Of a stretch of DNA of 55,188 nt, positions 27,213-28,858 are shown piece by piece. The position numbers are program-made. The DNA lies in IMG/VR virus record IMGVR_UViG_2850802633_000006; one strand, written 5' to 3'. The stretch comes from a virus (Duplodnaviria; Heunggongvirae; Uroviricota; Caudoviricetes). Within the stretch, counting starts at the first letter, position 1. The number at the start of each line of letters is the position of its first letter.

Positions 27213-28858
27213 TGAGTTCACAGATAAAACACTCTCCAGGAAACCCGGGGCGGTTCAGTGCCTTCAGGAAGAGATAATCGGGAAGCGCCTTCACTGATCG
27301 AAAGTTGATTTTCAAGAACCGTTCTGACAGCTTCGGCTTTGAACTCTTTAGAGTAACGTTGGGTTTTTCTGCTCATTATTAGCTCCTTCTGATGCCATTC
27401 TATTTCAGGAAGGAGTGTCCGTTAAACTCAGGCTACCTCAGTTTCTCTTCATAATCCTCTTCCGGATCACCATCAGGCACATCGTTTTTACTTCTTCTCA
27501 GATACGATATGTAAAAATCACGCCAGGCATCCAGATCCAGTTGTCCTCGCTTGTTCGAAACCGGGGCACCCGGCAGTTTCTGTAATCTGCGAAGCTGGCG
27601 ATCGGTCAGACTCAAATGCCTGGCAACTTCAGTCTGAGTAGCCACTGTTCACCTCGCCAAAAAATCTCCCCTCATGAGTTTTAAACATGCATCTTGCGAA
27701 CAACTTTATGAAACGCGGCATATATGTCCGGTTTGAGTGTTCAATTTTTGCGCATGTCCGGTTCACAGAAAGCGCATTTCTATATTTTTCAAATGGTTAA
27801 CCTTCAGAGAAACCGGACATGGTTTCCGAAAAATTTTCATAAATAGTGAAATTCTGCGCCGCTCCCGCCCCGTGGCAGGCCACCCCACCGGGAGGACCCG
27901 TCAGCCTGACAGCCATGACGAACGTCTGATACAGCGCCCTGCATGAATGACATCGGGATAATCCAGAAAGGAATAGCATCGTACCCACAAGAATCAGTGT
28001 AAGTGTCCTGTTTCTTCCACCCCCGCACAGGACTGGCGAGCATGAGGGACAAACCCGCGAACCATAAACGCGGTAAAAACCCGGTGTGCATCGTTTTTGA
28101 TTATTCCCGCACACTCGCGCAGAAGGAGTTCCCCGTCGGGCTACGGTCATGGTTAATGCGGGAATACAGCGACGATACAGCGCATGATGTGTCAGGCCTG
28201 AATACCTTTATCCGTTAAAAGGGATATCAGTTAAGTTATCCCGTGTAGGGTATAAGCCATTACAAAGCCCACCAGTAGATGGGCTTTGTAATGAAGAGCC
28301 GTTGTGAAAGTAGCTCTCAGGTTGTCATTTTTTCCCTTTTCTGCCTACCTGCCCACTGTTTTGCAATGTACAGGCAGTCATCGAAAACTCGGCCTTTTCT
28401 GCTGGCTTGTGAACAACGGCGGTAATGCTCCACCGCCATGTCAGCGCCAGTCATAGCCGCGTTCTGGTCGTACCCAAGCTTTATTAACTCGGTTGTTACA
28501 TTTTTATGTATGAAATCAATCGGAGTCATGCTGGTTTACCATCAGGGAAATCCCCCATGTCACATAGCTTGAACTGAATCAGATCCTTCACAAGCTGCTC
28601 AGCCTTTTTAATGGCCTTCTTCTCTTTCTTCCGATGAAGTGGCACACTGAATTTGGCCACCTGAACAGAGGTGATATGCTCACCTCAGAACAACACAGGT
28701 GCTCCAATGAAAAAAAGAAATTTTAGCGCAGAGTTTAAACGCGAATCCGCTCAACTGGTTGTTGACCAGAAATACACAGTGGCAGATGCCGCCAAAGCTA
28801 TGGATGTTGGCCTTTCCACAATGACAAGATGGGTCAAACAACTGCGTGATGAGCGTCA

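What the first reader, a model, noticed from the sequence alone, without database searches (positions are those of the whole stretch)
27720..27890. Lambda-like cos site with a distinct set of cosB repeats
The minus strand carries GGGGCGGGAGCGGCGCAGAATTTCACTATTTATGAAAATTTTTCGG, close to lambda cosN/cosQ, just upstream of nu1. The adjacent region has three ATGTCCGGTT elements in mixed orientation instead of the lambda R-site sequence, suggesting a small terminase subunit with different DNA specificity.
Basis: partly seen in the sequence, partly recalled or inferred. Interest (0 to 1): 0.4.

Follow-up and report, generated by a model that had tools for sequence, protein, structure and literature searches.

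The report
Lambda-type cos with new TerS sites
This is the DNA-packaging start site (cos) of an IS-disrupted lambda-like prophage, and its terminase-binding repeats (core TCCGGTT) and matching small-terminase DNA-binding domain form a widespread recognition class different from the three documented ones (lambda, 21, N15).

Summary
On the minus strand, 27899..27724 is a complete lambda-type cos: cosQ (GGGTCCT), a 12-bp cosN (GGGCGGGAGCGG) and a cosB with three exact ATGTCCGGTT elements at +51 (R3, forward), +108 (R2, inverted) and +138 (R1, inverted), upstream of nu1. The motif occurs nowhere else in the 55-kb window.

The Nu1 C-terminus is lambda-like, but the N-terminal winged-helix domain is diverged. 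Wherever that domain occurs (E. coli, Klebsiella, Salmonella, Citrobacter, Enterobacter, Aeromonas, Pseudomonas), a TCCGGTT-core element sits 51-53 bp from the nick. TerS residue 20 tracks the base 5' of the core: Arg with G in 7 of 7 distinct sequences, non-Arg with T in 19 of 19.

The R sequence differs from lambda, 21/Gifsy-1 and N15/Monarch. The module is in 1,163 of 5,426 complete E. coli genomes and in viable PhiR12 phages, and I found no description of it.

Corrections:
- The quoted string is cosN plus spacer; cosQ lies just outside the stated range.
- cosN is a natural variant differing from lambda only at bp 7-12.
- nu1 is split by a 2.6-kb IS block, so this copy cannot make its own TerS.

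Verdict: new member of a known kind, moderate interest.

The parts
27893..27899 (-). cosQ core GGGTCCT, 22-28 bp upstream of the predicted top-strand nick (one bp closer than in lambda)
   Evidence: Aligns with lambda cosQ. Identical in mEp460 and PhiR40_1.
27854..27874 (-). cosN: CACG|GGGCGGGAGCGG|CGCAG. The predicted 12-nt 5' cohesive end is 27870..27859.
   Evidence: The left half GGGCGG and the CG dinucleotides at both nicks are conserved. Differences from lambda are confined to bp 7-12. It differs by 2 bp from Gifsy-1's cohesive end. The phage Tritos record ends exactly at the equivalent ...CCACG.
27826..27851 (-). cosN-cosB spacer (lambda I2 region), TTTCACTATTTATGAAAATTTTTCGG
   Evidence: The CTATTTATGAAAATTTT core is invariant in 55 distinct relatives and shared with lambda.
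27811..27820 (-). R3: ATGTCCGGTT, forward, bp +51..+60 from the nick
   Evidence: Same position as lambda R3 (bp 50-65, PMC9026076). CCATGTCCGGTTTCTCTG is invariant in 55 distinct sequences.
27787..27799 (-). I1: IHF-like site TAACCATTTGAAA followed by an A/T-rich tract, bp +72..+84
   Evidence: Matches YAANNNNTTGAWW. Lies at the position of lambda I1. Also present at +72/+73 in the Klebsiella, Salmonella and Citrobacter relatives. PhiR12-type has one mismatch. Inferred, no binding data.
27754..27763 (+). R2: ATGTCCGGTT on the + strand, inverted relative to R3, bp +108..+117
27724..27733 (+). R1: ATGTCCGGTT on the + strand, same orientation as R2, 30 bp from it, bp +138..+147
   Evidence: Orientation is opposite to lambda R1. 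Relative L183 has a forward R1.
27676..27713 (-). 38-bp patch shared with mEp460/PhiR40-type phages and absent from PhiR12-type (mosaic joint upstream of nu1)
27439..27645 (-). nu1 5' part: GTG start, codons 1-69, encoding the diverged winged-HTH DNA-binding domain
   Evidence: 100% identical to residues 1-69 of the intact 169-aa TerS of E. coli FDAARGOS_943.
24869..27438 (.). IS block (about 2.57 kb, IS3-family-type transposase ORFs) inserted in nu1 after codon 69, with a 5-bp overlap at the joint
24560..24868 (-). nu1 3' part (residues about 68-169): lambda-like self-assembly and gpA-binding region
   Evidence: PF07471, E 5.6e-19, model positions 85-163. (100% identical to L006 TerS, 45% to lambda Nu1).
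22660..24588 (-). gene A, large terminase subunit (642 aa)
   Evidence: 99.8% identical to the FDAARGOS_943 TerL and 93% to PhiR12_1 gpA.

Best explanation
This is the cos site of a lambda-like prophage, with the standard layout cosQ - cosN - spacer - cosB (R3 - I1 - R2 - R1) - nu1 - A. Its cosB and the N-terminal DNA-binding domain of its small terminase belong to a recognition class distinct from lambda, 21 and N15/Monarch. Inferred mechanism, by analogy with lambda: winged-HTH domains of dimeric TerS dock on R3 (+51..60) and the inverted R2 (+108..117), brought together by an IHF-induced bend at I1. R1 adds a third site. The lambda-like TerS C-terminus holds gpA so that it nicks cosN 12 bp apart, giving GGGCGGGAGCGG 5' overhangs, and packaging then proceeds rightward. 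The recognised core is TCCGGTT. The base 5' of it (bp 53) is probably read by residue 20 at the C-terminal end of helix alpha2, with Arg20 pairing with G (this window) and Asp/Asn20 pairing with T (relatives). In this window nu1 is broken by an IS block, so the site could only be used in trans by a co-resident phage of the same specificity. Shown here: the sequence anatomy, its conservation, the fixed distance to cosN, the co-variation, and the fold prediction. Inferred: binding, IHF bending, nick positions and packaging specificity.
Against: There are no binding, footprint or virion-end data for any member. The IHF-like match is not enriched at window scale (6 found against 4.7 expected), and PhiR12-type has a mismatch in it. 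R1 is oriented opposite to lambda R1, and its orientation varies within the class (L183), so its role is unclear. The close relatives are not very diverged, so conservation alone is weak evidence. The co-variation rests on few independent lineages. In this window TerS is inactivated.
Confidence: 0.85

Rival explanations
1. The cos in this window is a dead recombinant relic. The cosQ/cosN half came from an mEp460-type phage, whose TerL is only 24% identical to this gpA. It was joined to a PhiR12-type cosB/nu1/A, and this gpA cannot cut the variant cosN properly. The repeats would still be genuine R sites, but the site as a whole would never have worked.
For: The mosaic structure is clear. PhiR12 phages, with 93% identical gpA, use the canonical GGGCGGCGACCT. 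The mEp460-type TerL is only distantly related. Only 9 of 81 surveyed loci combine this cosN with this TerS. No virion of this exact combination is on record.
Against: All differences lie in bp 7-12, where natural variation is documented and tolerated, and the CG flanks are kept (PMC4669245). The same TerS class is found with at least six other cosN variants, including the N15 one. An apparently intact prophage with the identical combination exists.
Confidence: 0.1
2. The ATGTCCGGTT elements are not terminase sites. They would be chance repeats, or binding sites for some other factor such as a late-gene regulator or a host protein, with TerS recognising something else.
For: There is no direct binding evidence. 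A weak hairpin/terminator-like match overlaps R3.
Against: The elements keep a fixed distance to the cosN nick, not to the gene start, across genera. They are strictly associated with one TerS N-terminal domain type and co-vary with a residue of its recognition helix. No promoter-like site is present. The positions equal lambda R3 and R2. The terminator-like count is not above shuffles.
Confidence: 0.04
3. The class is functionally the same as an already documented specificity. Lambda, 21 or N15 terminase would cross-package it, as N15 terminase packages lambda DNA, so it would not be a separate packaging specificity.
For: Asymmetric cross-packaging between dissimilar R3 sequences is documented (N15 terminase packages lambda DNA, PMC4669245).
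Against: The R sequence shares no evident similarity with lambda (CGTTTCC-TTCT), Gifsy-1/21-type (GATCCGTTCT) or N15/Monarch (GGTTGTTGTTT). The recognition-helix sequence differs from all three.
Confidence: 0.1

Closest known systems
Bacteriophage lambda cos (cosQ-cosN-cosB with R3-I1-R2-R1) and gpNu1/gpA terminase
   Same: The order and spacing of subsites are the same: cosQ, a 12-bp cosN with conserved left half and CG flanks, R3 at bp about 50-60, an IHF-like site, and an inverted R2 at about +108. The nu1-A gene order is the same. The TerS C-terminal region is homologous (45% identity) and gpA is homologous. The DNA-binding domain has a winged-HTH fold.
   Different: The R sequence is ATGTCCGGTT against lambda's CGTTTCC(G/T)TTCT. 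The TerS N-terminal domain is not detectably similar by BLAST or Pfam and has a shorter wing. R1 is inverted and 30 bp from R2. The cohesive end differs at bp 7, 8, 9, 11 and 12. cosQ is 1 bp closer to cosN.
N15 / Monarch packaging class (Feiss et al., PMC4669245)
   Same: It is the precedent for a lambda-like cos with a non-lambda R3 and a cognate TerS helix. It occurs both as a complex cosB (Monarch) and as a simple R3-only cosB (N15). The present class likewise has complex forms (enterobacterial) and simple or tandem R3-only forms (Aeromonas, Pseudomonas, phage 705R4).
   Different: N15/Monarch R is GGTTGTTGTTT and its TerS begins MAVLLNKSDMASS. Neither matches here.
Phage 21 / Gifsy-1 class
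   Same: Complex cosB, with natural variation in the right half of cosN. Gifsy-1's cohesive end, GGGCGGCAGCGT, differs from the window's by only 2 bp.
   Different: The R sites (GATCCGTTCT-type) and the lambda-like Nu1 N-terminus are different.
PICI Rpp proteins (RppC, PDB 6HN7)
   Different: Rpp is a hijacker protein without a TerL-binding C-terminus, at 16% identity. Here the domain is part of a bona fide TerS.

Membership tests
lambda-like cos site (12-nt 5' cohesive ends related to lambda; Feiss definition, PMC4669245) | 12-bp cosN with significant identity to lambda, conserved left half and CG at both nick sites | tested here: met
   7 of 12 identical, bp 1-6 identical, and CG flanks present. 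Actual cleavage was not tested.
lambda-like cos site | Conserved 7-bp cosQ upstream of cosN | tested here: met
   GGGTCCT at 27893-27899, 1 bp closer to the nick than in lambda.
lambda-like cos site | R3 at a fixed, critical distance from cosN (bp about 50-65) | tested here: met
   R3 at +51..+60 here. It is at +51 to +53 in all relatives with a recognisable cosN.
lambda-like complex cosB | Three R sequences, with R2 opposite to both R3 and R1 | tested here: not met
   There are three R elements and R2 is opposite to R3, but R1 has the same orientation as R2. Relative L183 does have the canonical arrangement.
lambda-like complex cosB | IHF binding site (I1) between R3 and R2 | tested here: inconclusive
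   A consensus-like TAACCATTTGAAA at +72..84 is positionally conserved in several genera. It is not statistically enriched, and there are no binding data.
lambda-like cos site | Staggered nicking that yields 12-nt 5' overhangs in virion DNA | not testable with these tools
   The only indirect support is that the Tritos phage record ends at the equivalent ...CCACG.
lambda packaging specificity | R sites of CGTTTCC(G/T)TTCT type and the lambda Nu1 recognition helix | tested here: not met
21 / Gifsy-1 packaging specificity | 21-type R sites and a 21-type TerS N-terminus | tested here: not met
   Compared with Gifsy-1 only. Phage 21 itself was not aligned.
N15 / Monarch packaging specificity | R3 = GGTTGTTGTTT and the TerS helix of N15 | tested here: not met
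   The E. albertii loci L009 and L010 do meet it.
Pfam Phage_Nu1 (PF07471) | Full-length match to the 164-position model | tested here: not met
   Only model positions 62-163 match (E 1e-18). The N-terminal 48 aa are unmatched. The broader phrog_57 TerS family does cover the N-terminus (E 1.5e-11).
Winged-HTH (MerR/Xis/TerS-type) DNA-binding domain | beta-alpha1-alpha2-wing-alpha3 topology | tested here: met

The most novel reading that the evidence does not exclude
This would be a fourth, orthogonal packaging specificity among lambda-like cos phages. It is far more widespread than the N15 class: about a fifth of complete E. coli genomes, plus Klebsiella, Salmonella, Citrobacter, Enterobacter, Aeromonas and Pseudomonas phages. 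Its sub-specificity would be set by a single amino-acid/base-pair switch, TerS Arg20 with G53 against Asp/Asn20 with T53. That switch would let co-resident lambda-like prophages avoid packaging one another's DNA.
Probability: 0.45. Interest if true: 0.55.

Novelty: new member of a known kind. Interest (0 to 1): 0.4.

Why it matters
Feiss and colleagues noted that only three packaging specificities (lambda, 21, N15) had been documented among lambda-like phages, and that more diversity would be expected because cross-packaging of resident prophages is costly (PMC4669245). This locus belongs to a further, very common class with a clearly readable site, a cognate domain, and a predicted one-residue/one-base specificity determinant. 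That makes it directly testable. It also bears on three practical questions: which prophages and PICI-like elements can mobilise each other in E. coli, Shigella and O157 strains; how cos sites are annotated in prophages; and whether orthogonal cos/terminase pairs can be designed for in vitro packaging.

Tried and rejected
- **Protein search with the 70-aa fragment:** The search for homologous proteins returned only truncated proteins, so it was redone with the intact homologue.
- **Genome-contig scan:** it gave only 4 loci, because the collection holds one genome per species.
- **Family and structure-by-sequence searches:** Pfam, NCBIfam and PDB sequence searches gave nothing for the N-terminal domain.
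- **IHF consensus:** counts across the window were not above chance, so I1 rests on position only.
- **Promoter and terminator scan:** no promoter was found, and the one weak hairpin overlapping R3 was not above shuffles. A regulatory-site reading was therefore dropped.
- **Literal literature search:** searching for the motif found only unrelated primers.
- **R1 orientation as a class trait:** I first considered the inverted R1 a class-defining novelty, and rejected this because relative L183 has a forward R1.
- **Decayed cosN:** I considered that the variant cosN might be a decayed site. This is unlikely, because it is 94-100% conserved in viable mEp460-type phages and in an intact prophage, and it varies only at bp 7-12.
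- **gpA against cosN type:** I did not pursue co-variation of gpA with cosN type, because the variant-cosN loci are near-clonal.

Full report
**1. Observation**

The minus strand of 27960..27640 reads as a lambda-type cos. Coordinates below are, and positions are counted from the predicted top-strand nick.

| Part | Sequence | Window | Position |
|---|---|---|---|
| cosQ core | GGGTCCT | 27893-27899 | -28..-22 |
| cosN | CACG\|GGGCGGGAGCGG\|CGCAG | 12-mer at 27870..27859 | +1..+12 |
| Spacer (I2 region) | TTTCACTATTTATGAAAATTTTTCGG | 27826-27851 | +20..+45 |
| R3 | ATGTCCGGTT, forward | 27811-27820 | +51..+60 |
| IHF-like site | TAACCATTTGAAA | 27787-27799 | +72..+84 |
| R2 | inverted | 27754-27763 | +108..+117 |
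| R1 | inverted | 27724-27733 | +138..+147 |
| nu1 start | GTG | 27645 | +226 |

The exact 10-mer occurs only at these three places in the 55-kb window. Apart from a poly-Glu coding run near 42.8 kb, no other 110-nt span holds any 10-mer three times. cosQ lies just outside the given range.

**2. State of the locus**

nu1 is interrupted after codon 69 by a 2.57-kb block of IS elements at 24869-27438. Rejoining the two halves gives a protein 100% identical to the intact 169-aa TerS of a prophage in E. coli FDAARGOS_943. That prophage's cos is 320/321 identical, its TerL is 99.8% identical, and it has a full head-gene set. Two further IS insertions sit in the lysis region upstream of cos. This copy is therefore defective, but the module is not.

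**3. Mosaic structure and cosN**

Three-way alignment shows a mosaic:
- cosQ and the 12-bp cosN follow the mEp460/PhiR40 type (94% identity).
- The spacer, R3, I1, R2, R1 and nu1 follow the PhiR12 type (82% identity). PhiR12 has the canonical lambda cosN.
- A 38-bp patch just upstream of nu1 is again mEp460-like.

The cohesive-end equivalent differs from lambda at bp 7, 8, 9, 11 and 12, and from Gifsy-1 at only bp 7 and 12. Feiss et al. report that natural variation in bp 7-12 is common and tolerated, while cosQ, the left half and the CG flanks are conserved (PMC4669245). That is exactly the pattern here. The same TerS class occurs with at least seven cosN variants, including the N15 one.

**4. 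Do the repeats travel with the TerS type?**

IMG/VR holds 264 contigs with this TerS, and 80 were fetched. Adding the window, L006 and PhiR12_1 gives 81 loci. R3 is exact at +51 in 80 of them, and R2 and R1 are exact in most. CCATGTCCGGTTTCTCTG is invariant in 55 distinct upstream sequences.

Diverged homologues give the stronger evidence:
- Klebsiella, Salmonella, Citrobacter and Enterobacter homologues (60-78% identity) all have a TCCGGTT-core R3 at +51/52 and an inverted R2 at +108/109.
- E. coli phage 705R4, Aeromonas phiARM81ld and Pseudomonas LPPA33 (47-55% identity in the N-terminal domain) have a tandem TTCCGGTTCCGGTT and no R2 or R1, an N15-like simple cosB. In phiARM81ld it starts at +53; the nick was not located in 705R4 or LPPA33.
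- The element keeps its distance to the nick, while its distance to the start codon varies from about 25 to 175 nt.

**5. Co-variation**

Within a genome all copies share the same variant, for example ATTTCCGGTT in Klebsiella.

| TerS residue 20 | Base 5' of the core | Distinct N-terminal sequences |
|---|---|---|
| Arg | G | 7 of 7 |
| Asp/Asn/Thr/Ser/Lys | T | 19 of 19 |

Fisher p is 1.5e-6, uncorrected for phylogeny. One Arg20 protein in the otherwise non-Arg 'GVLP' clade (L186) has GTGTCCGTGTCCGGTT, which makes a second lineage. Members whose second helix reads QAVG/PAVA have no TCCGGT at all.

**6. The protein**

- Pfam Phage_Nu1 matches only the C-terminal two-thirds. BLAST finds 45% identity to lambda Nu1 over residues 73-167 only.
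- The broad phrog_57 TerS family, which includes lambda Nu1, also covers the N-terminus (E 1.5e-11). The domain is therefore a diverged relative and not a foreign domain.
- AlphaFold2 gives beta1, alpha1 (4-10), alpha2 (15-22), a wing (32-36) and alpha3 (38-54), with pLDDT about 80.
- Residue 20 lies at the C-terminal end of alpha2. In lambda that end points to the 5' side of R3 (PMC9026076), which agrees with a contact to bp 53.

**7. Comparison with known classes**

- Lambda R sites read CGTTTCC(G/T)TTCT.
- Gifsy-1/21-type sites read GATCCGTTCT and come with a lambda-like Nu1 N-terminus.
- N15 R3 reads GGTTGTTGTTT.
- E. albertii loci fetched in passing have the N15-type TerS and three GGTTGTTGTTT elements. 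They are the published Monarch class, which validates the approach.
- The present R sequence and helix match none of these. The literature documents three specificities only, and a literal search for the motif found nothing relevant.
- R1 is inverted relative to lambda's, but relative L183 has a forward R1, so this is not class-defining.

**8. Prevalence**

The cosB plus nu1-5' module is found at 80% or more coverage in 1,163 of 5,426 complete E. coli genomes, including O157:H7 strains, usually annotated only as 'terminase small subunit'. PhiR12 phages, propagated on K-12 and E. coli C according to their records, carry it.

**9. Verdict**

The locus is a genuine lambda-type cos whose cosB/TerS pair belongs to a widespread, apparently undescribed specificity class (core TCCGGTT). 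The layout is conserved, with a natural cosN variant and a plausible Arg20-G53 contact. It is a new member of a known kind and is inactive in cis here because of IS disruption. Binding, IHF dependence, nick positions and packaging orthogonality remain inferred.

Noticed in passing
window 24869-27438, 28635-29878, 30198-31461: The prophage is riddled with IS elements. A 2.57-kb IS block splits nu1 after codon 69. Two more insertions lie in the lysis region upstream of cos. Identical 272-aa transposase ORFs occur at 24911-25729 and 30600-31418. The best genome match for the split nu1 is Shigella flexneri (L007), so the window is probably from Shigella.
   Followed up: partly
L004 (mEp460), L005 (PhiR40_1); window 27852-27960: mEp460/PhiR40-type phages have a lambda-like cosQ and the GGGCGGGAGCG(G/T) cosN. 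They pair it with a DUF1441 small terminase (PF07278), a TerL only 24% identical to gpA, and an unrelated region downstream of cosN. This appears to be yet another cos recognition class. The 109-bp left part occurs in about 1,340 complete E. coli genomes.
   Followed up: partly
L009, L010 (Escherichia albertii and Escherichia sp.): These prophages have an N15-type TerS N-terminus, a lambda-type cosN, and three GGTTGTTGTTT elements in forward, reverse, forward order at about +49, +111 and +188. This is the published 'Monarch' complex-cosB class. Their Nu1 C-terminus is near-identical to the window's, which shows modular exchange of the DNA-binding domain.
   Followed up: yes
window 27676-27713: A 38-bp patch immediately upstream of nu1 is shared with mEp460/PhiR40-type phages, where it precedes the DUF1441 TerS gene. 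It is absent from PhiR12-type relatives. It is a small mosaic segment of unknown role.
   Followed up: no
L183 (IMG/VR contig 2806310672_000003): This relative has Asn20 TerS, a tandem R3 (ATTTCCGGTTCCGG), an inverted R2 and a forward R1. R1 orientation and R3 copy number therefore vary within the class.
   Followed up: partly
window about 42811-43000: This is the only other place in the window where a 10-mer recurs three or more times within 110 nt. It is a GAA/GAG run encoding EEEEEEEE in a 214-aa ORF (42684-43328, minus strand). It is ordinary low-complexity coding sequence.
   Followed up: yes
window 27797-28150 and 27837-28091 (minus strand): Mechanical ORFs of 117 and 84 aa run across cosQ and cosN. 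The homologous stretch is annotated as a hypothetical protein in mEp460 and as a 'putative late gene regulator' in phage Ayreon. Whether anything is really encoded across cos was not examined.
   Followed up: no
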